A stretch of DNA of 59,648 bases, the filler included, from Streblomastix strix (lineage: Eukaryota): the NCBI GenBank assembly GCA_008636045.1. It is 3 parts of 3 records of this genome, joined end to end, with 100 filler letters (N's around TTAATTAATTAA, not from the genome) between each part and the next. Parts side by side here need not be neighbours in the genome. Positions count along the whole stretch, not along the records: positions 1 to 19,825 come from SNRW01000482.1; positions 19,926 to 39,738 come from SNRW01000483.1; 1 more part is not named here. One strand, written 5' to 3'. This document shows positions 7,564-39,737 of the stretch, one piece after another; within the stretch, counting starts at the first letter, position 1; each line of letters begins with the position of its first letter. Made by a program: the position numbers and the translations under genes. The notes beneath the pieces were generated by a model that saw only the letters and a list, made by a program, of their open reading frames with translations, did not search any database and had not been told where the DNA came from.

Positions 7564-8193
7564 GGTTTATATAATATACAATTGATTAGCAAACTATTAT
7601 TAAAACATATATTAAATAAATAGTAAGAAAGTAATTAAATTAGTTTTATTTTTATTAAATTACTTATTTTTCATTTCTATTACTTGAATTTAATTGAATA
7701 TTTAATAATTTTATTTTTCAGCTGTGCAAAAATAGGTTGTTTTTATTTTTTAATTTTTTTCTTATTTTTTTCATCAGTTAAAATAAAAAATTATAAGATT
7801 TAATAATTTGCAACGTATATTTATTAAATTCACAAAAATTTAGTATTAAAATTGAGATGAAAATAGTGGTAATACGGCTGAAAACGGCTAAATAACGCGA
7901 TTTTTATTTTTCAGCGGTTCATGTTGCCTAAACATAAAAAATTATATTTAAATATTTATTAAATATTTTTTTAATTAAAATCAGCGAACCATTTTAAATT
8001 TGTAGCCGCTAATACTCGAAGAATCGACCTAAATTTTTTTCTAATGAATTTTTTCCATGACAATATTTTTTAATTTTCATTTACGAAAAATGTTTATAAA
8101 ATTCATATAAATATTTTTAAATAAAAAAATTGTTAATTTTTATTCTGGACGGAATCATCCATATAATAAATGCAAAAATAAATTACCTGTACA

Positions 8194-8400
8194 TCATTCA
8201 GTGATATTTAATTAATCTTTACTTTTAAGATATGCATTAGATATACGTATTATATCACGTATACTATTTAAGACAGCATATAGATTTGATGCTAATTTTT
8301 TCTTTGTATCAATTTCTTTAATTTCATTATTAAGTTGTTAGCATTCTTATTGTAATTTTGGTTCTATTTCTTTAAAATATTCATACATTTATTTGTCCAT
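8194..8400 (-). CDS. Small coiled-coil hypothetical viral protein (~68 aa)
   Basis: MDKQMYEYFKEIEPKLQQECQQLNNEIKEID...NITE-TGA in table 6. Confidence 0.5.
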
Positions 8401-8429
8401 TTTGAATAAATTACAAAAAAATAATCGTA

Positions 8430-9047
8430 TCAATATAAATCAAAATCATTGTATTCCTATTATTGTTCTTCTTGTGGTTGTTCTTGAATGATTTACTATT
8501 GTTCAAGTTAAATTTATTATGGCTCTTCCTTTTCAATTACTTATTTTGACTATTTGTTTCGTTTTGCTTTTAATTTATATTTCTCTATTTGTTTGATAGC
8601 GTCTTAATGCTACTGCTTAATAAATGAATTTTCTGTTCTTAATTTGATTAATTCTTCTAAATCAAGTTGTGAATTATTGTAATTAATTTATGGAGTTTTT
8701 GATATTTTTACAACTCTTTTTCTAATTTATTTCTTTAATGGTTTTTCTCGTACTTCGCTTATGGAATCATCACTTTCATTTTATTCCTCTTACTGTTCCT
8801 AAGATATAAAATCTTCATCATCAATTTATTTTTAAGATGCTTTTTAAACATTTTTCTTTGGAGCAACCCCACCTTTAGCTTATAACAGTAATTTATTCTA
8901 CTATGTTTAAGTTAATTTTTTTAACGTCTTTTTTCCTTCTTCGAACACTTTAATATCTTTATTAATTTGGATGACATATCCGTTATCAAAGTACTCAATA
9001 TTTGATCCATTCTCTATTAAATTCTTCAATGCGTGATGTAAGTCCAT
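8430..9047 (-). CDS. Hypothetical viral protein A (charged; homologue at 32310-33068)
   Basis: MDLHHALKNLIENGSNIEYFDNGYVIQINKDIKVFEEGKK...; probable frameshift near the C-terminus. Confidence 0.6.
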
Positions 9048-9103
9048 TTGAATAATTTTATATTAGAAAAATGATAAAGGGCATAGAAAGAAACTAAATT
9101 CGC

Positions 9104-9792
9104 ATGTCAAAATCTAAAAAATAAATATCTGAGATTAAACATAAAGAATTAACGGATGAAGATAAAATTAGATTGCAATTGATCGATGAAGCTATCGATA
9201 GGATTAAATCAATGCCAGCAGTCGATGAGACCATCAAACCTAAAGAAAATGAAACATAAACTGAAAATGAAATTATTACATCAAAGCCAGAATCATTAAT
9301 CCTAATAGAATAAAAAATTACTAAATATAAGAGTAAATATAATAAAGATAAAAATAAACAAGTAGATAGAACAACTGCTTAAATAGAACCAGAAGAAGTA
9401 GTTAAAAATACTTATCTTTTACATCCTAATCCAATGGTATGAAATTCATCATAGACAAATTATGGGCGACAATCACTACAAGAAAAAGAGGAGATGATTT
9501 CATATTCTCATCAGATAATTTCATTAAGCTTTGGTCATTAATCACGTAAGAAAATGAAGAAGATATAGAGATAGTATTAGAAAAACCATTGATGAGATCC
9601 CATTCATGCATAAGTAAATCATATAAAAAGAAGGATTTGATTCGTATGATGGAAATATTAATTAAAAATGTATCTGTAAAAGTATTGGATAATGTGCTCT
9701 ACAATTCAATTGAGAAACTGTATCGAGTAAATTGTGACTTTGTTCGTTTATCTGATGCACCTGAGATGGAGATTACCGATAATGACTTTTGA
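9104..9792 (+). pseudogene. Hypothetical viral protein B, one frameshift (homologue at 33156-33843)
   Basis: ...YLLHPN / MKFIIDKLWATITTRKRGDDFIFSSDNFIKLWSLITQENEEDIEIVLEK... aligns by eye to the copy-2 ORF. Confidence 0.7.
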
Positions 9793-9848
9793 TAATTATT
9801 TTAAATGTCTATTTTTTTACTGTTTATTTATTTTTACTTATTACATAA

Positions 9849-10286
9849 ATGCGTTCACAATCCGAAATCGTTAGAGGAAAATTGTTCATGAAACCTTAAA
9901 ATGTTGCAAAAGAAATATGCGTAGAACCAATATATTAATATAATGATGATTTCTATTAACGAACAGTAAATTAATATAATAAACCATACTATAAATTATT
10001 AAAGCGTTATGGAAATAATCAATGGATTCCATAAACAATTTACATTATGATCGAAAAAAGAAATAATGAACATATTGAAAAAACAATTAAACAGTATACA
10101 TAATAGATGAAAGAACTTTAGGATAGTACATCCAATTATCCAATACGTAACTTTACTGATGCAGAAGCAACTAAATTTTATGAAATGAAACATGCCATTA
10201 AATAAATATAAGAACAAACAAAATACAATAAATATGGTTAATGTGGAGTTAAAATTGAAGTCAATTGTATATTATACTACGTTTGA
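9849..10286 (+). CDS. Hypothetical viral protein (~145 aa)
   Basis: Open ATG-TGA frame in table 6: MRSQSEIVRGKLFMKPQNVAKEIC... Confidence 0.5.
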
Positions 10287-10310
10287 TGATCGATTATTTT
10301 TGCAATAAAA

Positions 10311-11084
10311 ATGGATAAATAATTAAGTGATTTAGATATTATTGATGAAGAAGAATAATCTATGTAATAAGAACAGGCAATTAAATTAATATAATTGTAG
10401 GAATAGTAATAAAAATACATAAATGATAGGAATAATTTATTTTAAATCATTGATTCAGAGATCATTAAGTACTTTAATTATTTGAGATAATTCTTTAAAA
10501 AAATCAAAGTTGATTTGACTAATTTTGTAACATTAAGTACTGATTAATTAATAACAGGAATCAAAACATTTTTATAACCAATCATTGCTAGTAAAATTGT
10601 TAAATAAGGTGGATCAAGTAACTAAATTCTATTAGCTAATGATGATACAATCGATAAAGATCAATTAGCCTATGAACCAATTGAGAATGCACGTTATTTT
10701 GCAATTGCATATGGAATGTATGAATAGCGAGTATGGAGATCATTAACAACATAAAATAGTAGAGTGTTTATTTCACTTCAAATAACTCGCTCAGATCCTA
10801 ATACAGTGTGGTAGTCAGGATATACTTTATTATCAATCGTTGATAGTACCATAAAACCAAAATTCAGTGGAACACCACATAACATACCATTAAATGCAGT
10901 TTTGTTTGCGTAAACAGTTATTGGTTATCCAATATGTTGGAATGGTGCTATTCCTATTGATTGTTACATTAATACTAATGGAAACGTTATAATAAATACA
11001 ATGTGTTAGCTAAGTTTGCCTGATTATTTTTGTGTATAAGTATGTGATTCATATGCAATTCATAATTAGTCGGCTAGTCAGTGA
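10311..11084 (+). CDS. Putative fibre/spike protein 1
   Basis: N-terminal coiled coil, tail-fibre-like motif FVTLSTDQLITGIKTF...KIVKQGGSSNQILLANDDT, beta-rich C-terminal head; open to TGA. Confidence 0.6.
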
Positions 11085-11273: not shown

Positions 11274-13217
11274 TCAAACAGCATTAATCGCACTACCAGC
11301 AAGCTCACCAATTACATCGATATTTAACACTTATGGATTAGGATTATTATCAAATGTAATTCGCATAAATGCATCGCATAGATAATGCATCATTGGAGTG
11401 ATGGATGCTTTAGTTGGATCAAGATAACTTCTCATAGCAATAAATTGGTTTAAATCATTTTAGTTCTATTCTTTATTTGAATCAGTATTATCTAATATTA
11501 CTTTAGTCAAATTACCATGTAAAATAACTTATATATTTGTTCTAGCACATAATTTTGAAGAATTATAGCCACGCATAAATGAATCAACAGTAGCAAATTT
11601 CCATGCAAGCATATATTTGTTAGGATATAGTGTTTTAGATGCTTTTGTCCCTACAAATAGTGTAGACGTATGAAATATATTCACATTGTCTTTCCCATAA
11701 AAGCCACCAGTTTTATCAGTGCAATAGAAATTTTCAAATGTAAGTGAATGATATAGATCTGATGGAGCACTAACAACATCTTAATCAACGATATAATCAA
11801 ACATTAGTCCATTAGCGGTTTGTGTCAGTGCTTCATATGGTGCAGGAATAACGTGTCGTTAATCACAAACTAAATCAAAATCATTAAGTAATATAGGATA
11901 AAACCAAGTTGGATACAATGACATGCCAAACGTCATGAATAGTGATTTAATATTAGAGAATGACATAATACTTTACATAGCTCCACTTGATTCAAAACCA
12001 CTAAATGGGAAATTTGATGATTAAAATCTAAATACTTAGGTAGGAAAATTAACTATTTTTTACTCTCTAATCATATTAATTATTGCATCTTCATTTTCAA
12101 CATTAAAGCTTATATTCTATATTTCTAATTTTTCAAATCGTGCATTATTAATTTAACTGATACTATTCTATGGTAATCTATCACATAATGCAGTATTTTA
12201 CATGTTGACTATTCGTACATTAAATTTCTTATATGCAAATACTGCTTAAGCAGTTGGTTCAGCTAATAGATATACTATGTCTAGTTTCTCAGGTGGAATC
12301 ATGTGATAAGCTTAGTGTTTATTTTTTACAGCATCAGTTTTATTGAGCCAAACTACTTTCAAATCTTATAGATAATCTTATATCCAGGGCTATAGATGAA
12401 GTTAAACATAATTCCGAGTAAGAACAGGAAATGAGTTAAAGATTGGATTTAATTAATTAAGATCAAGAACACCACTAAATGTGATATCAAATGGAATTTT
12501 AAAATACAAAGGAGTTGTAACTGATTATGTATCAATATCAGATAGATGAATTTCAATAAATATTCCACAATGACGTTTACCATTAATGATGCTTCCTAAT
12601 TGAGAAACACTAACGCTATTACTAGTGCATAAATCACTCAATGAATTAGAACTAATAGCAGCTTATTCTCTGGCATATATTGAAGTGCCCCATAATGCAG
12701 TGGCATCACGCATCAATTGAAATTGGTGAAATGGCTACCACGCAGTTGAGAATCCAAGCCAAAAACGTAATTGCTCAGATTTCTCTTCTCTTTCTGCTGT
12801 TTTACCATAATACTTTTATTCGGCTTATGTCATACTTTTTGCAACAAGAGCTTATGAATCTTCTAGTCCATTGAAGTTAATTCTCTTATTATATTCACCA
12901 TCTTCAAGATTTGTTTCATTTAATTATATCACTAATGTATTTCCAGGAATGGTAATTGTCCAATTTACTTAACATGTTTGTACCATTGTACAGGTGGCTA
13001 ATCCCCTTGCTCCTAGTGGTGCTCTAGTATATTTAACTCCACCAGATGTTAGTTCAGTTACTAGTTAATCGGTGAATTATTGCTCGGAAATTGAAAATGA
13101 TTCAGCATGAATCGTTAATGTTTTTAATATTTCACCTAATTACATATAACCAGCAACGTAATCAGAGTGTTACATTTTTTGCAAATGGGCTAAATAATCA
13201 CTAGATTTGAATGACAT
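11274..13217 (-). pseudogene. Putative major capsid protein (~650 aa), at least one frameshift
   Basis: MSFKSSDYLAHL...to ...IDVIGELAGSAINAV-TGA; beta-rich, well conserved in copy 2 (37005+), size and context fit a double jelly-roll MCP; the fold is inferred, not demonstrated. Confidence 0.6.
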
Positions 13218-13283
13218 TTCAATAAAACAAAAATAACTGTATGCTGATGACGATAATGATAATAAATTTTATATTAAATCAAA

Positions 13284-13493
13284 ATGGTATTCTTCTCTGG
13301 AATTGCGAATTTTGGTTCGAAAATTTTAAGCGGTGTTAAGAAAGCAGCGCAATGGGTAGCACCAGCATTACATAAAGTTTTATCAACAATATCTGGCCCA
13401 GTTGGAATGATTCATCCTGCTATTGGTGGCGCATTAGGTGCAGGAGCTAATCTTGCTGGTGCTGTTGATCGACTAGCAAATAAGCGTAATTGA
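13284..13493 (+). CDS. Small amphipathic-helix protein, adenovirus pVI-like membrane-lytic candidate
   Basis: MVFFSGIANFGSKILSGVKKAAQWVAPALHKVLSTISGPVG...; intact, divergent from the MCP gene, homologue at 36963(-). Confidence 0.75.
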   Translation: MVFFSGIANFGSKILSGVKKAAQWVAPALHKVLSTISGPVGMIHPAIGGALGAGANLAGAVDRLANKRN

Positions 13494-13513
13494 TGTAATT
13501 TATTTTTGAAGAA

Positions 13514-15831
13514 ATGAACAGTTCATTATTGTAACAATAAATCCGAACAGTTAGATAGTTAATCACTAACGATATTGCTTACTATATTTAATATTCGAAA
13601 CGTGGTGGATCAAGTGGTGGAATGATGTCGAATGATGAATACCAATTATTCAAAAATAATAACAATGCATTAGTCTACGCTGCTAACAATTAAATCATTG
13701 ATGGAATTGCATCAGATTACGCATTAAAAATAGATACTCTGGGATTACTAATGATAAAGAATTTGAAAGTGACTAATTTTGATTTTGTCGCATAGATTAA
13801 TTAGTTGATTAATTAAGTGAATTTATTATAACAATCAATTGGAACAACAGAATAGGATATCACTGATATAAAAAATGATATTTATACAATTAATTAAGAA
13901 TTGTCACGATAAGCACGTTTCAGAGGATATTATTTATTGAATACAGATATATAAAATTTACCTAATTCCGCTAATGGATATTTTTCATTTAGTGCGGAAA
14001 GTGGAACAGTATGGATGTATGATGCAGATTGTTATAATAGTGGAGATATTGTACCTGATTAAATTACACCAGCAAGTGATGCAACTCCTCTATCTGATGG
14101 TACAGCAACTGCAGGAATTAGCACCGAATATTCACGTGGGGATCACATTCATCCCTAAAATGTAACAATTACTATTCCACCTAGTGATTCTGCTAGTGGA
14201 TCAGTTGGTTCAACTAATTATTATGCCAGAAACGATCATTCTCATCCTATCAATATAACAACTACCATATCACCTCAAGATAGTGTTAGTGGATCAATTG
14301 GAATAACTAATTATTATGCTAGAAACGATCATTCCTATCCAATTAATGCAGAAACTAATGCTTCAAATATTCCTATCGTTAATGGTGTTGGTGCTAATGG
14401 AACATCAGCTTTTACGCTAGACATGATCATGTTCATCCATAGCAATTGACATATGATGGTAATGTTACGGAAACTAAGTTCATTAAGACAGGTGAAACTG
14501 CTTCAGAAGTGCTATGTGCCAATGGTGACACAACTACAATAGATAGTAAGTTATTTCGTACATATACAAGTAGTGGATGGATTAGATTATGTGTATTTCC
14601 TGCTTGTGATGGTATTGGTAATCCATTCATTGAATTTAAAATATATACATCTTATAATGCTGTTCAAATCATTAGACTATAGCCTTATTATACCGTCAAT
14701 GGAATCAATACTGTATATAGAGTATTTATGGCTCCAACTAGAGTTACTTCATAATATGTGATTGAAAATGGAGCACGTTCACCATTTCATAATCATTCTG
14801 GCTCTGGCACATCAGCTGTATATTAAGCAAATATTCAATTAGAATCGGTTGGTTCTATTACGATAGTTGTATCTGATAAATGTACTTATTTTACCAATAG
14901 AATCACGGAGATATTAACGTAAGATGTGGTTACAGGAGTATCAAGTGGAACAGTAATACCTATCAATTATAACTACGGATATGGTGGGTTTATGTAAAAT
15001 ACTTTATAAGTTAATCCAACAGATCGAACAAAATCCAGCTATAATAATGGTATTAGAATCGGAAATTTTAGTAATGAATCAACAACATATTTAGCCTGTA
15101 GTAATACAACAATTAATACTGTACAAGCAGGTCAATGGGAAATAAGTAAAATAAGTGATAATGCACTTACTATAAACCCATCATCTCTACGAAAAGCTGA
15201 TCATAGTGTTGGTTTAAGTATTAACGGTGATAGTTCAATAATAAAATTTAATGGTAATGAGTTAGTGAATGTCGGAACTGATTAAATAATTAATGGAAGA
15301 AAGACATTCAAAAATGACTAGTTTGAGGTATAACTAACAGATTCAAATTATCCATTATTAGTATTTAATAATAATAACCATTATTTGGAGTAAATGGTAA
15401 ATGGTAATGAATTGATATTGACTATTGATACTAGTTTACAAGTTGGTACTCCATTATATATTAATTGGCGGGGGAATACTTTAAGTACATAATACCCTGA
15501 TTCTAAATTAGTCACTAATTATGTTTTAAATGCAGGTTTATCTACTTCGTTTGCTGGTGTTACTTGTGGTGCAGTTTAAATTAATCCAAATTGAAACAAT
15601 TTTAATGAAGGATTAAGAATATCACGTTCTACCGTTAGTAATTATAGTGGAATTTATCTAGGGTGTAATCCAAGTTAAACTAGTGGAGCATTAATAGATT
15701 AGTGGAGTATAATAAATGCACCTACTGACGAATTAAGAATTGGAGTTGGAGATTAACTTCTTAATGATAATTTAGGTTTAATAATATCCGCTGATGGAAA
15801 TACATTATCATTCAATAAACGAACATTATGA
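13514..15831 (+). pseudogene. Long fibre protein 2 with phage-tail-fibre-like HxH repeats
   Basis: Coiled-coil N-terminus; repeats YSRGDHIHP, YARNDHSHP, YARNDHSYP, RHDHVHP; KFIKTGETASEVLCANGD; TDQIINGRKTF; ends GLIISADGNTLSFNKRTL; frameshift near 14412 and internal TGA near 15592. Confidence 0.7.
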
Positions 15832-16399: not shown

Positions 16400-16898
16400 T
16401 TTTCCTATTAATCTAAGTCATTTGACTCGATTAGCGCTTCAAATATTTTGAATATCTCATAATCTGTGGCACAACACTTTAAACCAATATTTGTAGCTAA
16501 CTGATACAATTATTCCATTTCATTTAATTCAAACAATTTATTTTTAAGGTTAATTAAAAATTTTAAGATACAAGATATATCACCAATGAGTTGCCAATTC
16601 CAAATCTTTATTGGCTATTGCTTCATTCAAAAATGTTTCGATTTATTCTACAGATATCTATGACCAATGTATTCGAGGCTAGTTCTTATCCATTTTTCTT
16701 TTGTAAAAGAATTGTATAATGTAAATCGTTATATTTAATGGAACCAATACAACATCGAAATAACTCCATAATACTTTTACTACATTAACGGTGTCCATCA
16801 ATTTATCAGGAATTGACACAGATATAATAGATGTTACAAAATTAACGCCATAAAACATGTATTTCCATTATTCCACGTTTCAGAGCTAAAATGTTCAT
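16400..16898 (-). pseudogene. Small hydrophobic ORF plus small helical ORF (homologues at 36129-36560)
   Basis: SVEQIETFLNEAIANKDLELATHW*YILYL matches TDDQLEELIKEAILNNDIKLAMENRYQIYL in copy 2. Confidence 0.5.
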
Positions 16899-16912
16899 TT
16901 ATTATTTTTAAA

Positions 16913-17927
16913 ATGACACTGCAAGAATTATAAGATATAACATTTACGAACTAGGATCCATTGAATGAATATAAAACTACGCCAATAACGAAGAATTCGT
17001 TGTTTCTTATTAATGAAAATCATTATATTGTAGGAGCTGTTGGAAGTGGTAAAACAACATTAATGTGTAAGCTAATTGTGATAAATAAAAAAAATCATTA
17101 ATCCATACATATTATACTTCTCGAATTATGGTGCAGATGAAACTATGGCATTAAATCTTAATAGTAAGAACATTTAACTAACTAATGTAACTTATGGAGA
17201 AGCAATGATATTTCTACCTGAATTTGATGAGATAAAATACCGTTCTAAAGAGATGTATACATGGTACAAAATGAATGAACAAAAATAATCTTATACAAGT
17301 GATTTCATTAAGCGAATGGAAGAATAGATATTATAGATTAATGAGATAAAAAAGAATGAAAAACCTAATGATTATCTTAATTGAATTGCTGAACTATTCA
17401 AATAAAAACTAATCGAGACCATTAATACATATAGTTAACCAACCAAGATATTGAGATTTGATATTCCAGCACTAATTCAAAACGTCAGTTATTAAAATAA
17501 ATTCAAAATAGTTGATGAGGATTAAGTTGACATAAAAATAATTAAAATACCTATTTTAAAAAAAGCTTAATTACTCCATACACTAATGCTCTTCGATAAT
17601 AAAGGATCTAATGCAGACATTTAACGATTCAATTCATAACTCTTTAAACAATAACACTTCTCGTTAGTGATTCTCGTCATTCAAAAATTCTATTTTCTTT
17701 ATTGTTTACCGTCCATTTTATTTGTTTATGATAGCAGGGATATTAACCTATGTAATTTGCTTAGGCGATAATATTGGTGAAACAGATCTAAGATAAGTGT
17801 ACGATGAAAATACCATATAAAATTTAGATTTTTATGAGTTCCAATTATTATACAACACATTAAAGAAATATGAGTTCATCATACTCAATAAATGGATGGG
17901 AAAATTAGAGATTCTCAAAAATAAATG
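16913..17927 (+). pseudogene. A32/FtsK-HerA-type genome packaging ATPase
   Basis: Walker A YIVGAVGSGKTTLM (~17024-17065), Walker B-like TLMLFDN, SRH motif; frameshifts. Confidence 0.85.
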
Positions 17928-17932
17928 AACAT

Positions 17933-19825
17933 TCACACAAATGAATAGTCCTTGGCAGTTAATCAATACATATATGGGCAACAACTCTAATTGGAAAGTA
18001 CGATTGCTTTAGTATATATACCAGTGATTCTATTTTTTTCGATAGAAAACTGACTCATCTAATGATTCTTCTATCCTAATCTCATATTAGTGCATTTCGT
18101 TATCTTTCCTTCATTAATGCAATCGACTATATAATCTTTAGTGATTTTGTTAGTCTTCTAATTAACTCCTTTCAATTTTATTTTTGAATCATCGCAATAA
18201 TTTTTGAATATGATATAATTTTTAGGAGCTAATGCTATCATTGATGGTCCTTATCGTTCGATTGCTAATGCAAGGATTTTCTTCTCATAATAAACGTCTG
18301 ATTTAATTGTAGGGAAGAAGTATTTATCATTATCGTTATAAAAATCTCTATCATTAATGACAGCATTAAAATACTAAGTAAAATCTTCAATAGGATTACC
18401 ACTAATTGCCTAATAAGCTGAATCAGAATCTCCTTCAATAAAATGTATCCGATTCATATCTAAGCATTTATATATATGAAGTTATATATGAAGTTTAGAT
18501 ACCAATATTTAGCATTATCTAATACAAAGAATGAAACTTATAAAGGAGTTTTACAACTGCAAAGCTCAGGATTCATTTATACAATATAACTGTTTTCAGA
18601 TATCTTTTGTTCATCCATGAAGGCATAAGATCTAATTGCTATTTCTGTTTACTTTCTATTCATTATTTTAACTTTATGATATTTCTCTGTATTCATTCCA
18701 TCACTACCATATGAGCTATTCATAACTATCTTAAGTAATTATTCTTATCCTTTATTCTCATCTAATTTTGCTTCAATTCTGTTCTTAGTAAATTCCTTAA
18801 TAAATGAATTGAATTAATCATGTTTATTGAACAGAACCATATGCTTTACATAATCTATAATAAAATGACAATCATCAATTAAGAACCATAAATAATATGA
18901 GCTAAATGCCATGAATTCTCCCATCGTTGATGATAGATTAGTTAACTTTCTTTATTTTTGGTCAGTCTTAATCGTAATATCTTTCATATGTTTATACAAA
19001 TAACTGTCGATATTTCTTTCATCAGTTGTGAATTCGTAATTCCTTAGAATAGGTGGGAAGTTAATGAAATCGTTAATGTATTTGTCTTAAATATGACTTT
19101 TGACTTCTGCAATAAATAATCTTCCTTCTTATATAAATCTCCTATTGCTATTAATTATTCGTAGTATAGTTTATTTTGAATGGTCAATATTACCCTCAAT
19201 CTTTCCTGTTTATGATACACACATATACATTTTACCACCAATGCATTTAATAAATTTATTTGGCTCTGATGACATAACACTAGTATATAAAGAATTAAAA
19301 TCAACACCAACTACATGAGTTATTCGATAATCAGTTGTTAAAACAGTAACATATTTATTTATTTTGTCATATTAGATTCGTTTTATCAAATCAATTCCTG
19401 ATACATTTACTCTATGCGTTACATTTGATAATCCACCTGTGATGCGTTTCCTAATTAAATGATATACATCAATATCAGTAAGATTAATTGGTAAACATCT
19501 AATCATACAATATTTACGTAATTATACGAATAATTTACCTATATTTATGTCTTTGTTTGAACAAAAGCAATTACAATATAAATAACGTGGTCGAACGTTA
19601 TCTTTTGAATGACCCTTTGAATTGTCGATTCTATCAAATGTCGGTTTATTAGCAAAAGTGAGTTTACATTCGCAAATGTTGCAATTAAAATCTGTGAATA
19701 ATTATTTGAAATATTCCAAATCACTATCTTTTACATTTTTTGTTTTTTCTCTTCTTTATTGTTTATCTTAGGCTTAATATCGCCTCACTTTACTCTACCA
19801 ATATTTCTCTGTTAAATAAAATTTC
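17933..19825 (-). CDS. polB: Protein-primed family B DNA polymerase (C-terminal part; 5' end beyond contig; premature stop near end)
   Basis: ITGGLSNV; motif A VGVDFNSLYTS; motif B KIVMNSSYG; motif C FIEGDSDS; IALAPKNY; KLKGV. Confidence 0.92.
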
Positions 19826-19925: not shown

Positions 19926-19926
19926 T

Positions 19927-20348
19927 AGTTTTCCGTCAAGCACAGCCTTGCATACACGTGTCATCAACGTCCGAAAATTGTTGGTAGCTTAATTTTTCAC
20001 ACCTGTTTGCATTGTTAAATTAGAGCTTTTTTTTTCCTCTAATAATGAAAATTTAAGATAATATAAAGTCATAAAATGTATTTAGAATTAATTATATTCA
20101 CAAAAATTCATAAGGATGTGTTATAAATTTCTGTTGGAGCAGAAAACTATAAAAAGTTTATAAATGCATTTTTCATGTGCTACGGAAAGTTTTTTACTAT
20201 AGGCTTTTTGTATAATTACAAAATAAGTTTTAATTGGTATTTGAAAATGAATTTATGTGTAAATCTAATTTCGTCGAACTAGTCAGGTCGCTATGGTACT
20301 TATGAAAAATAAAACCAACTTATTTTGTTGTTTCACATAAATAATTAG
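19927..20348 (+). repeat. Left terminal inverted repeat (~420 bp)
   Basis: AGTTTTCCGTCAAGCACAGCCTTGCATACACGTGTC... is the reverse complement of 39314-39737 with scattered mismatches. Confidence 0.92.
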
Positions 20349-20969
20349 TTATTTTATTATGATTAAAATGAAAAGTCCAACTATTCCAGAAGTAAAACCA
20401 TAATTCGAAAAGGAAATTGAAGTGTTTGCAGCTGTAGTTTCAGTTGCATCTTAAAATAATCCATTTAAATAACCATTTCAGGTGTAGGTTATTAGATGTG
20501 AAACGCCAACATTGTCAGCAAGGCGCGGAAGTTCAATACTAATTATTTTATTTCTTATTCAATAAGCTATTTCATACTTAATTCCTATTTCAACCATAAA
20601 TTTACTTAAAATTGACCTAAATCATCATTTTCTTGAATGTATTACTGATTACGCCGTGATTCAAATTATTAGTATTGTTTTACAGAACAATTTTAGCTTC
20701 GAGTTTCGAGCCTCAAGATTATTCCATTTTTACCAGATTTTTATTTTTTTTATTATTTTCTAATTTTTGTTTTATCGTATTTATACCTCTAGCCACATTT
20801 TTAATTTACATTTCTACTAATTTTCACTAATTTTATAATTTCGTTTTTCATTTTTAATAATTATTTTCGATACCATTTGCAGTATTATTTTATCGATTAG
20901 TTTTCACATTATTTATCATAAAATTACTTGATTTTATTACTTATCATCATCTTCATTATAATTCTCTTC

Positions 20970-27194: not shown

Positions 27195-28540
27195 ATGGCC
27201 ACATAAGGTATGAATGTATTGTCCACATCAACCAAAAAGGAGTTCGTTTAGTTGGAAACTACTTTTGCATAATTATATAACTAATTTTAAGCAAATGGTA
27301 TTTATAATGTACCAATTAATTTAATATATTATTTAAACAAAGATTATATTGAAATAACCCCAAATATTAGATCTACCGAATATTAGTAAGTTATGGAATA
27401 AGAATAATTACTGAATAATTTATTTAAATTAACAGCTATAGATTAACTTCCACAAATCAGAATTATGATGAATACGCATATTAATAACCATTATGTTAAT
27501 CATGAAGGGCGCTAGAGATATAAATTTAATCTATAAATTATTGTTCTAAAGAATAATTAATTTAATTAATTTACAGATAACTATAAATAATTTTTCAGAT
27601 AGGATGATAAAACCAACGGTTGGCCAATATGTTATAATTCAGTGGTAAACGAGTACACACAAAAATAATTAAATTTATATTCCCTGAACTAAAATATAGG
27701 TGAGAATTTATGTTTTTGTGCTAATATTTATATTAATTTACGCTTAGATTTAATTCTTTAACATTATTGGATATATAACCAATAATTATAGATTGCTTAA
27801 CGGGCGGTCAGGATAAATAAATTATATTTCCCTATGACAAATAATTATATAACTGATGTTGAACCTCATAAATACGACGAAAATAAATCCATAACGGTTA
27901 AATATAATTTCGGAATCTAATTTGAAATTAACAGAGATTCTATTTTACAAGCTGTAACATAGCCAATTAATGTATAAGAACCAAATTTATATTATTTTAT
28001 AAATTAAATTTATACATTTCCAGTTAGAATTATATTTTCCCTACTTGCTTTTTCTGCTAATGAGTGGGACTATATTTATATTAGTTAATAACGCCCTAAT
28101 GATTACGGTTAATTTGTACTGAAAGTTTTAGAATAGTTATATTGGGATAAATCAGAACTAACAAATATTTTAGAAATAGTAGAATTTAGTAACAATTTAC
28201 ATATCTAATTGACCAATAGTAATTAGCTATACGAGAACAACGATCGAGTAAAGTAAATGTAATTGGAAACGTGGTATTATAAAGTTAAATATTAAGCTCT
28301 GATTATCATTAAACATTACTTATATTTAGCCCTTTCATCGGTAATTTTATTGAATATTCAAAAATGTTAATTATAACTGTAAGTAATTAATAAAGAGGTA
28401 TAACGATGGAAGTTTTGGATAATAATTCATTTAATAATGTCGTATTCAAATAAAATTTAATTGGTGCTCCAGTAATATGGGGATAAAATAAGCTATCTCA
28501 CACAAATATTATTGAGTAGAATAAAGAAGTTATATTTAAA
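27195..28540 (+). pseudogene. Decayed ~450-aa ORF, possible minor capsid/penton
   Basis: MATQGMNVLSTS...; beta-rich aromatic composition, frameshifts; identity inferred from context only. Confidence 0.3.
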
Positions 28541-29034
28541 TTATATGATAATTTTGGTAGATAAGTACTAGTCTAATAAATGGATTAGTATAATAATTTG
28601 CTATTAGAAATATAGTATCAGAGAAACTGGCAGCAATAAAGTTACTACTAATGAAATTTGCGTAAAAATTTAACCTCCTAAAATTAGGCCCTGACTTTAT
28701 CGCTATAATTAGCCCAACAAATAATTTCCCAGAATTTTGAAAAATAAAACATTTGTGCAATCAACTTTTTCTCTGATCCAGAAAGTACTAACTTTATCAG
28801 CTGCATACTCGCTACCGAATTTGTCAGCGGCATAAATGTTAGTGTTTGAATTAATCATTCATTTATTTTTATTCTCAAATTCTTGAATTAGCTTTATAGT
28901 TGCCTATAGGCTATCTTCTTTAGCTATTTCCATTATTTCTTTTAATTATTCCATTCGTATTCTCCTATTAAATTATCGAAGTAAGAATAGCAATTTAATC
29001 TCAAGGTCTGATTTAGTAGTTTAACTTACGGGTA

Positions 29035-30659: not shown

Positions 30660-31678
30660 AGATCACTAGATATAAATTTAGTATAATAACTAGGCACTTC
30701 AATTACTCTATATCTTTATAGGGCTTCAATAGCTTACAGGCTACATTACTATGATTGAATTTGATTAAAGTAGCTAACTCATTAAAGTTCCTACGCAACT
30801 TTTCGAATTAGTGCTTAGTTTTAGTTAAATCTAAATGTATCATAATTATATTTTCATGATTCAAATTTAATATTTAATCTTTTCTTCATAAATTAATTTT
30901 ACCTTCTAATTCTTATTACTTATTGACGTATGTTACTACCTTCTAAATCTCTTGATTCATTTACTTATGTTGACGAATATTTATTGCAAAAAGCTCTATG
31001 TTTTGAATTATTGTACTCGTTAGCTGCTTACTATGGTAATTGATTAGTAACCTGTTAATTAATTAATTTATTTCTCATATTTCTGGTCGCCTCATCTACC
31101 ACTCTATTTTAATTCGTAAATAAGGATTTATTATAAAAATATTATATGTTATGTTTAATTAATAGATCCCATATTTATTTACTTCCAAACGCAGCTTCAC
31201 CATCTGATCTAACATTTGTCACGTACTTGGATTATTTTAGCTACTCCAGAGCTGGGATTATCGATCGTGTCTCTTTTGTACGAATTGGATAAATAATAAG
31301 ATATTTAGTGCTAACATTGTTAATAAACTGGTCCTATAATTATTTGAAGAACGCAATATCTATTTCCCACGACCCAAGTTAAGGAGAAAAGTAAGATCGC
31401 TAATATTTCGCAAATAGATTCAATTTATAATCTTTAATTTTTCATTAGGCTAATATTGACTTTACTATTAATCTCTTTCAATATCTCTACGTTATTTTTG
31501 TATATTTTTCGCGTTATATTCTTCAACATATAAATTATACCACTATTCTATACTCTTACCTTAAAACTAATCTGAAATATTAATGTGCTTGTTGAACTAG
31601 TAATTAATATTATTATCTAATTCTTTTATAGTTAATTTTTTAATTAACCGATTAAACTTGTCTGTTATGAACTATTCG
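30660..31678 (-). pseudogene. Retroviral-type (rve, DDE) integrase
   Basis: YQRSYFSPQLGSWEIDIAF...NVSTKYLIIYPI...VTNVRSDGEAAFGS; frameshifts; start codon appears mutated to ATC. Confidence 0.82.
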
Positions 31679-32309: not shown

Positions 32310-33068
32310 ATTATTTCTACCAGCCAATGTTGGTGGCTTGATTTTTACACTAGTATCTTAGATGCCTCTGACAAAGTACGTAGCATTTATCTCAATGACA
32401 AATTTAATACTTTCTGATTCAGTGAAAAGATAGATTGTTCCAACGTTTTATTTTTTAAAATTTCAGGGAAATTTTTTTCTTTTAATAATTTTATCGGAAT
32501 ATTTCGTATTAACTATATTATTATTGCGGCTTTTAGCAATATTATTTCTATTATTCCTATTCTTCTACTTCTTTACTTACTTCTGGTTCTATTTATAATT
32601 ATTTTTACTTTAATTTAAAATATTTTAACGCCTTCAATTTATTTTTATATTTCTGATTCTATTTAATAGCTTCAGCTTGCTACTATTTTATAAATTTATT
32701 CTCAGTTCGGAAAAAAACTAATTCTTCAAAATCTAATTAGGGATTAATATATTAAATTTATGAATTAGTTTATATTTTCGTTTTAATAAGTTATGGATAA
32801 ATTTCTACCTATTAATCTTATTCATCGTCAAAATAGTCTTCGCTTGATTCTGATTCAAACAATTATTTCATTTATTATTAATTTTATGGAGTACCTCTTG
32901 CTTGCATCATTAATTTATTCTATTATACATATGTTATTAATTTTTACCCTTTCTTTCCATCTTCGAAACAATTAATTTATTTCGTATTTCTAATAAAATT
33001 TCCCTATCAAAATATTAATTAATTGTACCATTTTCCATCAAAAATTTATTCATTTACAACTTATCCAT
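32310..33068 (-). pseudogene. Viral protein A homologue
   Basis: FLMENGTINQYFD...VFEDGKKRVK vs LIENGSNIEYFD...VFEEGKKTLK in copy 1. Confidence 0.6.
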
Positions 33069-33155
33069 TTGTTTAATATAGAAATATTTCTTTTGATTAA
33101 AATGTTTCGTGGAGTTGAAAGGATACAATTACGATTCTCTAAAAGTAAAAAATAA

Positions 33156-33843
33156 ATGAATGAACTAACTAATCCAACTAACTAATAAAGATTATAGTAC
33201 ATAGATAATTTAATATCAAAAGCTCTAATAAATTAAGATATTAACTAATAAGTTGACTAGTAAGATATTATAACGCCACGCAATAAATAAGAACGGCACT
33301 GGATTAAAAATAAATATACTGATGCTGATAGTACAACAGCTTAAGTTATTTCATAAGAAGTAATAGATAAATTAGCCCAGCCAACTATTGAAATACTACC
33401 ATAACCATTGATCGTATCACAAAATGTGCCAACTAATGTCACGGACAATCATTTGAACGCATATCTATCCCATCCTAATCTGGAGGTTATGAAGTTTGTA
33501 GTCGATTGTATATGGCGAACAGTTACACATAGAAACAAAGGTGACTATTTCATTTTATCCTCTGAAAATTTTATTATAATTTGATCTTTAATAACATAGG
33601 AGAAAGAAGATGATATAGAAATTGTACTAAAGAAATCTATAATTGCAAAACACTCATGTCTAAGCAAATATTTTAAGGAAAAAGAAATAGTTAGAGTTAT
33701 GGATGTACTGATAAAAAAATGTTTCGATTAATATTATGAATAATGTGCACTAGAATAGCGTAGAGAAATTTTATAGAATTAACAAAGATCTGGTTAGAAT
33801 TAGTGAAGTTCCAGCAATTGATATTGATCCTTCTGAATTTTGA
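33156..33843 (+). pseudogene. Viral protein B homologue
   Basis: YLSHPNLEVMKFVVDCIWRTVTHRNKGDYFILSSENF...SLITQEKEDDIEIVL. Confidence 0.7.
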
Positions 33844-33872
33844 TTTTCGATTTATTTTTACGATTAATTTAA

Positions 33873-35036
33873 ATGGATGACCTAGAACTTCCAACCGAGG
33901 AATAATTATAAGCGATAAAAGATGAACTAGATAAAATTAGTGAAATAAAAAACAAATAAAAATAATTTGAATTATTATGTGAGAAATTGACGCCCTTCAT
34001 TGAATAATAAATAATTAAGTACTTTACTTATTTTTATTAATATATCAAGAAATCAAGAGATTACGTTACACCAGATACAGAATAAATAATAACTGGTAAA
34101 AAATAATTAACGCCCTAAAAGTTAAATATTTAACTAGTGTAATTCGTGCAAACTTAAGTGAAATTATCGCAGATGATATTGAAGCAATATAATTTATGTT
34201 ATCTGATGGTATTTTAAATTTAATATTACAAAATAATGGAGATACAATAGATTTCGATTAATTTTTACTAAAATAACATCCATTTGCTTTTGATGACCTA
34301 ACTCAATAGCCAATTCCAGACATTGATTCCAAATTAGGTGGATTTTAAATATGTAAGGGAATAGATAAAAATTTAGATAGAAATATTTATTTAGGAACTA
34401 ATTTTTATAGCAGTATAATTATATTTGATACCCATCTTTAACTAATTCCTACATTAGAATATGAATAGGCGCTATCATTGAAATATTCAAACACAACTAC
34501 TGGATTTCGTAATGAAAAACCATTTCAGATATAGAAAATGAGTGATGTAAATAATACAAATAAGGAATTATATATTGATAAAGATTGAAATTAATTAATA
34601 TTCAATGGATAAATTATTTCACCATAAACTGCGAAAAGGTGGGCAATTTCATGTTGCAGATAATGTAACTGTGCCAACTTAAGATTCATTAGCTTTGCAT
34701 AATATTTGAATTGTTTATGTTAGCTTTTATCTCCATTGGACATCTAGTGATGGGACATCTTACGATCAAATAATAATGGGGAACGTTGATGATGATTTTA
34801 TCTCTAAATTTTTCGATACACTATATATGTTACATTCAACTACTTCATCAGCTAATATAAATTAATATCCGGATTGTATAATAATTTAATAAGAACAAAT
34901 AATTATTAATTTAAATTCTCATACATCAATTCCAGCTTCACTAAATATGGAAATTAACGGGATTTATTTTTCCAATAATGTTGCAAATTGAAACCAATAA
35001 TTATAGAGTTAATTTCAGGCTCCGAGAAAAGGTTGA
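33873..35036 (+). pseudogene. Fibre protein 1 homologue with a different C-terminal region
   Basis: MDDLELPTEEQ... and DYVTPDTEQIITGKK match the N-terminal part of the 10311 ORF; downstream sequence not alignable by eye. Confidence 0.55.
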
Positions 35037-35059
35037 TTGTAACAACTTTTTATTTTTCA

Positions 35060-36092
35060 AAATATTTTGATAATTAATTGTTACGTTAATTTCAACGTTT
35101 AAATATTTCGTAAGTATTTAATGATTTGTTTATTAAGATAAATTCAAATTTATATAAACTGTTATAAATATTGATTAATTCTTATTCATTAAATTCTTAT
35201 ACAATATTTTTTACATTGATTTATTTCAAATCTTATTCTGATATGTTAGCCTCAACTACAATTACGTGGCATTATATAAGAGCTGGTTCAAACAAATAAC
35301 ATGGCCTTTACGTTCAAAAGAATATGGTATTTTTACTAAGCCATCTATCGGAGACCAAATGAGTAATTGATCTAGCCAGCTCACTAGTGTATCGTTAAAT
35401 ATCGGTATTAGACCCAATATCATCAAATATCATTAATGTAGAAAGTAATTATGGGTTCATAAGTAAGGTTATTTTTTAAAATTCTTATTCTCCGTCTTGT
35501 TCTGCAATTTTTTATTTCTTAGAATATTAAACCTATATAGTTATCGGGGGAACAATGAATCGCATAATAGATGTGGGCTAACTTAATTCATTAATTTTTT
35601 TTATAGTCTCCATTTGGAAAATATCCCTTAATCTATGTTAATATTATTTATCTGTTTCTTATTCGCCATGTTAATCTTTTTATTTATTATTATCAACTAT
35701 TGATTCTTTCATTCTAGTTATATAATCTGAGTCATATTTCATATCTCGTTCTTTTAATTTCCAATAGGTATATATTTCTTTTACTTTATATTTAACTTAA
35801 TCGAATTATGGTAGAAAAGATTGAGCTTCTACTTAAGTAATATTAATTAATTTTATACCTTTATTATTTAATTTAATCGCCATTGTCTCATCTGGTCCAT
35901 AGCTAGAGAAATATAATATGTATGGATTAATGTACCGTTAATATAATACAATTAATTATGCCATTAATGTTGTTTTACCACTTCCTACAGATCCAACTAT
36001 ATAGTAATTTGCGTTAATAAGAAAGATAGAATGTGATGCTAGTAGCCCAATTTTATATTCTTCTAGTTATGATTAATCGTCGAATTGTACAT
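35060..36092 (-). pseudogene. A32-like packaging ATPase, copy 2
   Basis: YYIVGSVGSGKTTLM...INPYILYFSSYGPDETMA...TLMIFDDIG. Confidence 0.85.
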
Positions 36093-36128
36093 TATTTATT
36101 TATTGAGTATTCATTTAAGTAAATATAA

Positions 36129-36560: not shown

Positions 36561-36829
36561 AAATGTAATAAATATAAGGGTTAACTAATTAATGGAGATC
36601 TGTTATTTATTAATTAATTTTAACTTAGATTTAATATTATTTGTAGTATTTGAAAAATTAAAGTAATAATTCAGGTGTAATATAAGACGAAAATTATTAA
36701 TTTTTATTGATAATTAATCAGCGTTAGTTTACGCGGACAAATAATATATAACAGATGGGTCCGCTTGCATCTTCGTATTAAAAATAAATACTGATGGAAA
36801 ATTAGTATTTCTCGATCTTACTTGTTGTT

Positions 36830-36963
36830 AGATAATTAGACCCAAGCGGCCCAGATGCAGCTCCTATAACTTTATGTAGCACCAGTGCGACCCTTTTAGC
36901 TGCAGATGTTACTCCATGTAAAATTTTTGAACCGAAATTCTTGAGATCTGACAAAAACCCCAT
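36830..36963 (-). pseudogene. pVI-like amphipathic protein, copy 2 (3'-truncated)
   Basis: MGFLSDLKNFGSKILHGVTSAAKRVALVLHKVIGAASGPLG. Confidence 0.75.
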
Positions 36964-37004
36964 TTGTTAGTGAATAACAGTTTGAAATTTATTTCAATCA
37001 ATAA

Positions 37005-38750
37005 ATGTCGTTCAATACATCAGATTATTTATCCCATTTATCGAAGACCTCACATTCCGATTATGTTTCATCATACTCTACACTAAATGAAGTGCTAAGA
37101 ACTTTGACAATTGAACCTTAATCATTCGCAATATCCAAATAGAAATTTTTTGACTAACTAAGAAATATTTTAATTTCTGGCGGTACTAGATAGACTAGTG
37201 CTCCATTAGAGGCTTGAGGTAGTGTTAATTATTGTAGTGTCTAGACTTATTAAGTTAATTGGACAATAACTATACACACTAATAGTTTAGGTATGTAACT
37301 AAATAAAATAATTACAACATAAGGTATGTTATGCTCTATAGAATTTTGTCGAGCGAAAACTAACTTCAATGGAACTGCAACAGCTACAACAGCTCTAGCA
37401 GATGGCATTAAATAGCCAACATAAAAATACAATGTTTGTGAAATGCTGAAATTTTGGCTAGGGTTCTCAACTACCTGTGGTTCTTTCTAACAAATAGCTA
37501 TTTGTCATGATAATACAAAACTTTAGGAAACTTCAATTTACGTTAGAGAATAGGCGATCATTTGTTCTAATTCGCAATCTGATCATACCATTAATAAATT
37601 AGTTTCAATTTCATCTCTTGAAAGTATAGTTTAGGTTATGCGTCACTGCGGTGTATTTATTTATATTCCTTTGGTCGACATTGCTGCCGCTTCTGCAAAA
37701 ACTGCATTTTATTATCGCAATCCCAAAGATATTACATTTTCTGGATTAATAGATTCGAATTAACTTAACCCTATTTTTAATGAATTTCCTGCTCTTAATA
37801 AAAATTATGCCTCGTTATATTTGTAACTTTGGATGACTGATTTCCTATAAGATTTAAAAATAATTTGATTAAATAAATCATTTCACTCATTTGATACTTT
37901 TTTTAGCTTACACTATGATACCAGCGGAGAAGTAAGATATAATTGCACTTTTGAATGATAGCGCAACACCTGCCAATGTTTAATTTTCAGTTTGATTGAT
38001 TAATTGTAAAGATTTAGATAATGCCGCTTCAGATCCTAAAAATAATATATAATAAATTGATTCAGCATATCTTGATAATCAATCTATACATAATTTATGT
38101 TTTACAATGGAAAATGAAATGTCAATCATTGATATGATTAGAACATAAAAGGTAATAAATTTCCCAATGTAAGTACTTAAGACACAATCAACTAAATATC
38201 CTATGTCCGGATCTCAAATTTAAACAATAATATCATTCTCTAACATAAAAAGTGTATTTATGACATTCGCTATGTAATAATATCCCACATGGTTCTTCCC
38301 ACTTTTACTGAAGAAAGATAACTTAATCAATGACTAAAAACAGTCGACACCCAATATTTATGAAGCACTTACCACTGATGTTTATGGATCAATGTTTTAA
38401 TGTTTTGTTGACTAAAATATTGTATCTGCACCATCTGATCTTTATCGTTCACTTACTTTCGAGAACATTAATATGAATGATAAGATCAATTCATACGGAA
38501 AAGATGATGATATAAATGTTGAAACATAAGATAACATATTTTATAAGACTACACACTTTAAGGGATCTAAAACAATTAGAACGTACAACTCAAATAAATT
38601 TATGCTTGTATAGAAATTAGCTACTGATGGCTCGATTATGCAAGGCTATAATAGTAATAGAATATGTGCCAGAACAAATATATAAATGGTTCTTCTTTAT
38701 AACTTTATAAACTGGTAGACAAAAGTTCGTCGAAATTTTTTTAAACATTT
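37005..38750 (+). pseudogene. Putative major capsid protein, copy 2
   Basis: MSFNTSDYLSHLSKTSHSDYV...RHCGVFIYIP...LNPIFNEFP; colinear with 11274-13217; stops and frameshifts, 3' end lost. Confidence 0.6.
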
Positions 38751-39313
38751 GATATAACTATAATTTATCAAATAACTATCTTATGCATAAATGATATATA
38801 GTATATATTTAAGGTATGTATCTATTATTATTTATAATTCACAACTTAGATGTAATGCTTAAACTCCAATAATTATATTAAAAAATTGCTCAACAATATG
38901 TGTTTTTTATTGGACAAAAGCTCAGCAACAAAAATTTTAAATTTAAACCTATATCTGGACTTAAATTTATTTGAGTAACTATTATGATTATAATTTATAT
39001 AGACAATATCAATATAAAAACATAATAATAGAAACAATTACATCTCTTTTTAGAAATTTAGAACTGTGAAGCTAATAATTTTTTTTTATATTTTTGGTTT
39101 TAATAGTTTTTCCTGTTATATTATTAAATTCTCAATTGAACTTAAATGGACAAGAATAATTTTATCATTACTAAAATAATGTACAACCTACTTATAATTA
39201 TATAATAATTATAAATTGAATATTGCCATACCGCTAGATATAGCCACTTTTCTCGCCCATATTGTATCAATAAAGGATAAACTTACTGAGTGAACCGCGG
39301 GAGTATAAGCTAT

Positions 39314-39737
39314 CTAATTATTTGTATGAAACAACAAAATAAGCTGGTTTTATTTTACATAAGTACCATAGCGACCTGACTAGTTTGACGAAATTAGATT
39401 TATACATAAATTCATTTTCAAATACCTATTAAAATACATTTTATAATTATGCAAGTACTCCTATAATATAAAACTTTCAGTAGCACACAGAAAATGCATT
39501 TATAAACTTTTTATAGTTTTCTGCTCTAGCAGAAGTTTATAACACATCCTTATGAGTTTCTGTGAATACAATTAATTCTAAATCTATTTTATGACTTTAT
39601 ATTTTCTTAAATTTTCATTATTAGAGGAAAAAAAAAGCTCTAAATTAAACAATGCAAACAGGTGTGAAAAATTAAGCTACCAACAATTTTCGGACGTTGA
39701 TGACACGTGTATGCAAGGCTGTGCTTGATGGAAAACT
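39314..39737 (-). repeat. Right terminal inverted repeat
   Basis: ...GACACGTGTATGCAAGGCTGTGCTTGATGGAAAACT; reverse complement of 19927-20348. Confidence 0.92.

What the first reader, a model, noticed from the sequence alone, without database searches (positions are those of the whole stretch)
7720..39737. Family of endogenous Polinton-like viruses with a complete virion-type gene set, represented by two diverged copies
Seen: contig 1 has pPolB, A32 ATPase, an MCP-sized ORF and fibres; contig 2 has integrase, HNH, KilA-N, TIRs and clear homologues of at least seven contig-1 ORFs. Established: PolB + rve integrase + A32 ATPase + capsid proteins + long TIRs define Polintons/Mavericks. Inference: together the copies outline a divergent lineage of integrating dsDNA virus of a TAR=Gln protist, with several orphan core genes that are invisible to standard-code annotation. 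I did not recognise an adenain-like maturation protease in either copy.
Basis: partly seen in the sequence, partly recalled or inferred. Interest (0 to 1): 0.9.

Follow-up and report, generated by a model that had tools for sequence, protein, structure and literature searches.

The report
Second endogenous virus family in Streblomastix
Two pieces of DNA, likely from a termite-gut protist, hold broken copies of an integrated virus whose coat protein is predicted to fold like known giant-virus and virophage coats but likely belongs to a different family from the one already reported in that host.

Summary
Real, partly known. The window is three unrelated contigs in TAA/TAG=Gln code; 119 of 120 listed capsid homologues are Streblomastix strix proteins. 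Contig 1 carries an open double-jelly-roll capsid gene (fold predicted, Z 16), a small amphipathic protein, fibre-like ORFs, a broken packaging ATPase and a broken pPolB, near a spliced host gene. Contig 2 is a rearranged, more decayed subfamily (seven shared ORFs) with an integrase remnant, KilA-N and a weak penton candidate, but no PolB and no HNH. Its 433-bp inverted arms are real but look low-copy, so they are doubtful as family TIRs. Code-6 capsid elements in S. strix are published (Bellas 2023: one cluster, Trichomonas type). What looks new: this capsid and ATPase have no significant similarity to a Trichomonas-type Maverick fetched here, while PolB (46%) and integrase (E 4e-19) do. Standard-code metagenome relatives keep the capsid/amphipathic protein/ATPase block. 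No copy shows PolB and integrase together, and no protease was found. One earlier scan note, on another genome, has a similar theme. Verdict: likely a second, unreported capsid lineage of metamonad Polinton-like viruses.

The parts
3866..6419 (-). Flank, not viral: host ubiquitin-repeat/RING gene with a 94-nt GT-AG intron at 4543-4636
   Evidence: PF00240 E 7e-41 and PF13639 E 3e-6; intron joins the two frames
8433..9047 (-). Orphan ORF A, shared with contig 2 (32422-33006)
   Evidence: 60% over 50 aa, E 4e-11; z 18
9029..9439 (+). Orphan ORF B, shared with contig 2 (about 33081-33221)
   Evidence: 45% over 51 aa, E 6e-7
9439..9789 (+). Orphan ORF C, shared with contig 2 (about 33489-33840, three pieces)
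   Evidence: E 1e-14, 7e-11, 8e-8
9849..10283 (+). Orphan ORF D, no assigned homologue
   Evidence: no Pfam or PHROGs hit
10311..11081 (+). Orphan ORF E; N-terminus shared with contig 2 (33837-34478)
   Evidence: E 2e-4; z 9.4
11277..13217 (-). Major capsid protein, double jelly roll (predicted), frame open
   Evidence: 158 homologues; model of family alignment pLDDT 76, pTM 0.80; PBCV-1 Z 16.3, mavirus 12.8, Sputnik 12.2; 0 stops
13284..13490 (+). 69-aa amphipathic protein beside MCP; candidate membrane-penetration protein (inferred)
   Evidence: homologue on contig 2 (z 22) and in L001/L003 (E about 1e-8); hydrophobic moment above 1000 of 1000 shuffles
13493..15591 (+). Fibre-like ORF in two frames (assignment inferred from repeats only)
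   Evidence: 93-nt tandem repeat at 14141-14326; no Pfam or PHROGs hit
16895..17928 (+). Packaging-type P-loop ATPase, broken in four pieces
   Evidence: Walker A and B align with intact L001/L003 ATPases; 43-56% to contig-2 copy
17933..19825 (-). Protein-primed DNA polymerase B, C-terminal part; one frameshift near 18472, one stop, cut by contig end; HNH-like motif near 19635
   Evidence: PF03175; 46-47% to T. vaginalis PolB; stop 4 nt from the ATPase stop
19926..20358 (.). Left inverted arm of contig 2 (role as viral TIR doubtful)
   Evidence: 91% to right arm
26166..26834 (+). KilA-N domain ORF just upstream of the viral block
   Evidence: PF04383 E 1.4e-12
27195..28651 (+). Penton (minor capsid) candidate, two frames; weak
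   Evidence: C-terminal piece z 5.8 to L003 701-aa ORF, which has a weak virophage-penton lead in the Atlas (0.91, PF21507 on 10% of members)
28701..28833 (+). First of three copies of a 100-130-nt repeat (others 32362-32485 and 35006-35099, minus strand); function unknown
30721..31441 (-). rve-type integrase remnant, frameshifted
   Evidence: E 4e-19 to the integrase beside PolB in L010; two acidic motifs align; rve E 0.0087
32422..34478 (.). Homologues of contig-1 orphans A, B, C and E
35095..36114 (-). Packaging-type ATPase, one internal stop
   Evidence: 25% to L003 ATPase, E 8e-20; z 20.9
36721..36963 (-). Small amphipathic protein, 3' half frameshifted
37005..38712 (+). MCP pseudogene: 3 stops, 1 frameshift, ends at residue 567 of 646
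   Evidence: 74% to P0032
39305..39737 (.). Right inverted arm of contig 2
   Evidence: few contigs lie on it

Best explanation
These are two decayed, differently arranged copies of a multi-copy element that is likely an integrating Polinton-like virus of the oxymonad Streblomastix strix, with a capsid protein predicted to be a double jelly roll and likely of a second family, distinct from the Trichomonas-type capsid already reported in this host. Shown: code 6 throughout; MCP, small amphipathic protein and ATPase travel together in both copies and in standard-code metagenome relatives; PolB abuts the ATPase; PolB and integrase are of the Trichomonas-type Maverick lineage. Inferred mechanism: a linear genome of about 20 kb copied by pPolB, pumped by the ATPase into an icosahedral capsid with penton and fibre, released into the cell with help of the amphipathic protein, without a maturation protease, and inserted into chromosomes by the rve integrase. 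Its TAA/TAG-rich genes can only be read by a host with that code, so the lineage multiplied inside this host long enough to split into subfamilies before these copies decayed.
For: Fold: (15 highest rows are all DJR capsids; 7-11% identity). Host and copy number: 119 of 120 listed MCP hits named S. strix; all 28 S. strix rows plus both window rows form one clade apart from 10 environmental rows. Endogenous: spliced host gene on contig 1. Distinct family: L010's MCP matches the published S. strix reference by eye yet scores 1.4 bits against the family HMM, hhalign probability 1.7%, best z 2.1 in 16 pairwise tests; ATPase z 1.8 to contig 2. None of 4 published reference tags seen is among the 120 hits; 0 of 6 tags of this family occur in the stored supplement. 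Replication genes shared: PolB 46-47% to T. vaginalis; integrase E 4e-19. PolB linkage: 4-nt gap; two other S. strix gene models run from PolB into the antisense of this ATPase (P0289, P0376); PolB P0388 and MCP P0116 share a 14,667-bp contig.
Against: PolB and integrase were not seen in one copy; contig 2 and the 13.4-kb L003 have no PolB. Penton and fibre are weak; no Pox_A32 hit for any ATPase. The hhalign shows collinear motifs with the Trichomonas-type MCP, L010's ATPase scores z 4.6 to L003's, and L010 has a similar small protein (z 3.4), so the modules may be deep sisters, not swapped. The per-contig S. strix rows of the published table were not in the stored file. The confident model is of an environmental member (P0146); the S. 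strix-led model had pLDDT 45. No virion or expression data.
Confidence: 0.68

Rival explanations
1. These copies are just members of the Metamonada (cluster 40) Mavericks already counted among the 820 S. strix capsid hits.
For: Same host, code and PolB/integrase lineage; references were gathered by PSI-BLAST, which could have drifted into this family; Atlas features rank a Parabasalia cluster second at 0.96; faint collinear motifs.
Against: Cluster rule was 25% identity over 30% length; no significant pairwise or profile score to a cluster-40-type MCP; reference tags do not overlap.
Confidence: 0.17
2. Contig 2 is one whole element bounded by its own TIRs, which later lost PolB and took in other DNA.
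For: 19.8 kb fits the 15-30 kb range; both arms begin with AG after one base (AG termini of Polintons recalled); 9% arm divergence fits the gene decay; diverged non-coding TIRs could fall under the 82% laying threshold.
Against: On the right arm run X1 gives summed depth 45-113 against 565-10,033 in conserved MCP bins and 20-25 for exact-match pieces; X3 and X4 give 0 (depth is only a hint, not a copy number). One contig runs past the end. 6.8 kb between left arm and viral block holds a dynein fragment and other non-viral pieces. The MCP is cut 600 nt before the right arm. No arm-like sequence at contig 1's left end beyond 22-nt matches in opposite orientations.
Confidence: 0.3
3. The capsid block is a polymerase-less satellite or virophage-like module, and the PolB on contig 1 belongs to a neighbouring Trichomonas-type Maverick.
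For: No PolB on contig 2 or in L003; tandem integration and module mobility are described (10.64898/2026.10.13.758929, passages).
Against: 4-nt convergent packing and the same linkage on three other contigs.
Confidence: 0.1
4. The breaks are assembly artefacts and the elements are intact, or the contigs are free virus genomes.
For: PMC10120064 shows such artefacts in multi-copy elements; contig-1 MCP is fully open.
Against: An independently assembled contig of run X1 matches 37096-37853 with 0 differences, across the MCP stop at 37215 (X1 may be the source sample); spliced host gene on contig 1. Other breaks were not checked.
Confidence: 0.05

Closest known systems
Metamonada-group Maverick-Polintons (MCP cluster 40 of Bellas et al. 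2023; T. vaginalis, parabasalids, S. strix, Entamoeba)
   Same: Host and code 6; pPolB 46-47% to T. vaginalis; integrase homologous to that of L010; KilA-N; small protein beside MCP; DJR fold; multi-copy and fragmented.
   Different: MCP (about 650 aa) and ATPase have no significant sequence similarity to the Trichomonas-type ones in L010; gene order differs (in L010 integrase follows PolB directly); nearest capsid relatives are unnamed standard-code metagenome contigs.
Canonical Maverick-Polintons / adintoviruses (Polintoviricetes)
   Same: pPolB, rve-type integrase, ATPase, DJR MCP, chromosomal insertion.
   Different: No cysteine protease found; no Pfam match of MCP (0 meaningful families for 43 members); PolB plus integrase and TIRs not shown in one copy.
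Polinton-like viruses sensu Yutin 2015 (Aquintoviricetes)
   Same: Minimal morphogenetic module without protease (PMC4642659, passages); about 20-kb relatives.
   Different: Carries an rve integrase, rare in those PLVs; no relative found in IMG/VR in 6 scans.
Virophages (mavirus, Sputnik)
   Same: Large DJR MCP; top BFVD rows include virophage capsids; mavirus has pPolB and rve.
   Different: No protease; structural scores tie with or trail NCLDV capsids; 8-11% identity.

Membership tests
Maverick-Polinton | protein-primed PolB | tested here: met
   contig 1, PF03175 E 1.2e-8; 46% to T. vaginalis PolB
Maverick-Polinton | rve-type integrase | tested here: met
   contig 2 remnant: E 4e-19 to L010 integrase; Pfam rve only E 0.0087; no PDB hit
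Maverick-Polinton | PolB and integrase in one element | tested here: inconclusive
   contig 1 ends inside PolB; contig 2 lacks PolB; integrase homologue search gave 0 of 34 candidates
Maverick-Polinton | double jelly-roll MCP | tested here: met
   (model of an environmental family member)
Maverick-Polinton | A32-like packaging ATPase | tested here: inconclusive
   Walker A/B present; RH and Q motifs in L003 fit A32 (motif recalled); no Pox_A32 hit; PHROGs terminase E 1e-5
Maverick-Polinton | penton (minor capsid protein) | tested here: inconclusive
   weak chain of evidence; not folded
Maverick-Polinton | adenain-like protease | tested here: inconclusive
   no hit in 221 ORFs >=85 aa or in L003, no motif; but no copy is complete
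Maverick-Polinton | terminal inverted repeats and 6-bp target duplication | tested here: inconclusive
   arms present but low-copy; flanks lie beyond the contig ends
Metamonada group, MCP cluster 40 | MCP at 25% identity over 30% length to cluster members | tested here: not met
   against one cluster-40-type MCP (L010, assigned by eye): 1.4 bits, probability 1.7%, best z 2.1
Metamonada group, MCP cluster 40 | DUF4106 match | tested here: inconclusive
   0 of 43 members, but the L010 control also missed it
Metamonada group, MCP cluster 40 | PolB and integrase of the Trichomonas-type lineage | tested here: met
Virophages | virophage MCP family plus protease; dependence on a giant virus | tested here: inconclusive
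   no virophage MCP Pfam hit, fold ties; dependence not testable

The most novel reading that the evidence does not exclude
An unrecognised family of protease-less, roughly 20-kb DNA viruses of anaerobic protists, still present as standard-code genomes in metagenomes, whose capsid module was joined to the Trichomonas-type PolB/integrase module, invaded an oxymonad, was recoded to TAA/TAG=Gln and expanded to over a hundred copies beside the known Maverick family: a module swap and a code switch recorded in one host genome, and a bridge for placing the ungrouped metamonad Polintons.
Probability: 0.3. Interest if true: 0.72.

Novelty: new variant of a known kind. Interest (0 to 1): 0.5.

Why it matters
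A 2026 framework says metamonad Polintons remain ungrouped because their capsids are too divergent and more genomes are needed. A second capsid family in the same host, with intact standard-code relatives on contigs of up to 21.8 kb, gives new anchors, raises the viral share of the S. strix genome beyond the published count, and offers a testable case of capsid and replication modules with different histories. The conserved 69-aa amphipathic gene suggests how a protease-less virion could enter cells. The two window copies themselves are pseudogenised.

Tried and rejected
No whole genome was held, so copies could not be compared as DNA. IMG/VR: 0 confirmed relatives in 6 scans. GTDB genomes with the MCP alignment: 0 of 75 candidate stretches. 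PDB sequence searches with MCP, integrase and ATPase: nothing meaningful. Integrase against proteins and plasmids: nothing. First model (S. strix only) pLDDT 45; its BFVD rows were mostly DJR capsids but low-scoring. No RNA holder listed. HNH on contig 2 rejected. The many 262-aa PolB C-terminal models were considered as a conserved split and set aside: full-length frames exist (P0273). The high depth in the first bin first suggested a dispersed repeat; one search showed the arm itself is low, so that signal likely comes from sequence just inside it. The second fibre piece was in the wrong frame, so its comparison with L003's fibre is untested. The careful PolB tree did not finish; the quick tree has no Polinton outgroup. 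The Yaravirus passage was irrelevant.
Full report
Layout and code. The window is three contigs joined by N spacers: 1-19825, 19926-39738, 39839-59648; no genome is held. Table 11 leaves 3 ORFs of 100 aa or more, table 6 leaves 168. In seven viral ORF pieces 119 of 148 Gln codons are TAA/TAG (four host ORFs: 201 of 276). With Q masked, Gln is the commonest residue opposite TAA/TAG in homologues, 57 of 295 pairs.

Contig 1. A ubiquitin-repeat/RING gene with a 94-nt GT-AG intron lies left of a gene-dense block at about 8.4-19.8 kb: five orphans, an open 647-codon gene (11277-13217, minus), a 69-aa ORF, a two-frame fibre-like ORF, an ATPase in four pieces and a pPolB cut by the contig end. ATPase and PolB converge with 4 nt between their stops. 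I found no left terminus.

Contig 2. Seven ORFs have contig-1 homologues, in a different order, at about 45-60% identity. It adds KilA-N, an integrase remnant and a penton candidate, and has no PolB: 120 PolB homologues and the PolB ORFs of L004-L012 hit only contig 1. Its MCP has 3 stops, a frameshift and ends at residue 567 of 646; one stop is reproduced by an exact 758-nt contig of run X1, which may be the source sample. Runs of two other studies hold diverged 100-210-nt pieces of these genes. No HNH or protease appeared among 77 contig-1 and 144 contig-2 ORFs or by motif.

The arms. 19926-20358 and 39305-39737 are 91% complementary (396 of 435 columns) and start at the contig ends with AG after one base. 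But the laid contigs give the right arm a summed depth of 45-113 in X1, against 20-25 for exact-match pieces and up to 10,033 in MCP bins, and 0 in X3 and X4. Depth here is a hint, not a copy number, and diverged TIRs could be missed. With 6.8 kb of mostly non-viral pieces inside the left arm and a truncated MCP at the right, I give 0.3 that they are this element's TIRs.

The capsid. The gene has 158 homologues; of 120 listed, one is the window's own and 119 are S. strix hypothetical proteins, 12 labelled 'Major capsid protein' by UniRef. A profile of 46 of them found 211 representatives, 150 listed; ten long distant ones that I looked up are unnamed or 'hypothetical', three clusters on contigs of 20.0-21.8 kb. 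Three metagenome loci of 343 candidates are 28-34% identical. L003 is open under table 11 and carries MCP, the small protein, ATPase, a 701-aa penton candidate and a tail-like ORF, with no PolB or integrase in 13.4 kb. A 43-row alignment led by P0146 folded at pLDDT 76, pTM 0.80. The top 15 VIA rows are double-jelly-roll capsids (PBCV-1 Z 16.3, rmsd 3.4, 337 aligned; faustovirus 16.1; mavirus 12.8; Sputnik 12.2); Foldseek agrees (E 7e-11), as do Atlas features (0.95-0.97). In a FastTree all 28 S. strix rows and both window rows form one clade on a long branch, the two window copies in different subclades (long-branch warning).

What is in print. PMC10120064 (passages, one seventh of the text, searches of supplement file 2, which is cut when stored) reports 820 MCP hits in S. 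strix, all in one cluster, found by PSI-BLAST from the T. vaginalis capsid and read in table 6. The S. strix rows of its hit table were not in the stored part. Eight searches showed no paper on a second S. strix capsid family. 10.64898/2026.06.19.733378 (passages) leaves metamonad elements ungrouped; 10.64898/2026.10.13.758929 (passages) reports frequent reassortment of replication and capsid modules; their supplements are closed and may bear on novelty. PMC4642659 (passages) describes protease-less PLVs. PMC6048507 (passages) proposes an amphipathic helix for membrane rupture in mavirus; the parallel to adenovirus protein VI is otherwise recalled.

Same family or second family? A PolB scan of GTDB genomes gave 9 loci of 118 candidates. 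L010 is a Trichomonas-type Maverick whose MCP matches, by eye, the S. strix reference printed in the supplement. Against it the window family scores 1.4 bits, hhalign probability 1.7% and at best z 2.1 in 16 tests; the ATPases score z 1.8 (contig 2) and 4.6 (L003). By contrast L010's integrase finds contig 2 at E 4e-19, and contig-1 PolB is 46-47% identical to T. vaginalis PolB, inside an S. strix radiation in a quick tree of 44 rows. None of 4 reference tags seen is among my 120 hits, and 0 of 6 tags of this family occur in the stored file. Against a clean swap: the hhalign shows collinear motifs and L010 has a similar small protein (z 3.4), so the capsid modules may be deep sisters. This rests on one comparison element.

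Does PolB belong to this capsid block? Besides contig 1, gene models P0289 and P0376 run from PolB into the antisense of this ATPase type, and P0388 and P0116 lie two tags apart on one 14,667-bp contig; by reading contig lengths, that was the only shared contig between the two 120-row lists. PolB with integrase in one copy was not seen.

Mechanism. Shown: gene content, code, fold prediction, linkage, decay. Inferred from Polinton biology: protein-primed replication of a linear genome, ATPase-driven packaging, entry aided by the amphipathic protein (moment above 1000 of 1000 and 995 of 1000 shuffles in the two copies), integrase-driven insertion. Virions, expression and a helper virus are untested.

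Earlier notes. None by sequence or place; one note on another genome with a similar theme, not checked.

Verdict. A real endogenous virus family of a known kind in a known host; likely an unreported capsid lineage. Interest 0.5.

Noticed in passing
L010 (11.9 kb), also L004-L009, L011, L012: Nine contigs in bacterial MAGs of GTDB encode Trichomonas-type Maverick PolB; L010 has PolB, integrase, ATPase, small protein and MCP. Likely protist-virus DNA misbinned into prokaryote genomes.
   Followed up: partly
L003:5380-7293: Three tandem paralogous ORFs of about 210 aa (27-30% alike) with no Pfam hit, between ATPase and penton candidate.
   Followed up: no
window 28701-28833, 32362-32485, 35006-35099: A 100-130-nt sequence occurs three times between genes of the contig-2 element and not on contig 1; possibly a regulatory or recombination site.
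   Followed up: partly
window 25305-25619 and 57657-59213: Dynein heavy-chain fragments: a 45-residue AAA_6 piece inside contig 2 and broken AAA_6/DHC_N2 pieces on contig 3.
   Followed up: no
window 21750-22160 and 1-3200: Fragments that resemble DIRS retrotransposon recombinase and other domains (motifs recalled; no Pfam or PHROGs hit).
   Followed up: partly
window 22839-23036: 33-nt tandem repeat, about five copies.
   Followed up: no
window 54596-57574 and 42892-46185: Contig 3: Gln-rich ORF ending in a hAT dimerisation domain (E 4e-8) and a multi-zinc-finger ORF (zf-Di19, E 4e-19).
   Followed up: no
window viral ORFs: Conserved Gln positions sit on TAA/TAG (Gln opposite 57 of 295) far more than on CAA/CAG (5 of 68), suggesting the virus recoded its conserved glutamines to the host's reassigned codons.
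   Followed up: partly
window 40905-41238: 144-nt inverted repeat (73%) with a 46-nt spacer on contig 3.
   Followed up: no
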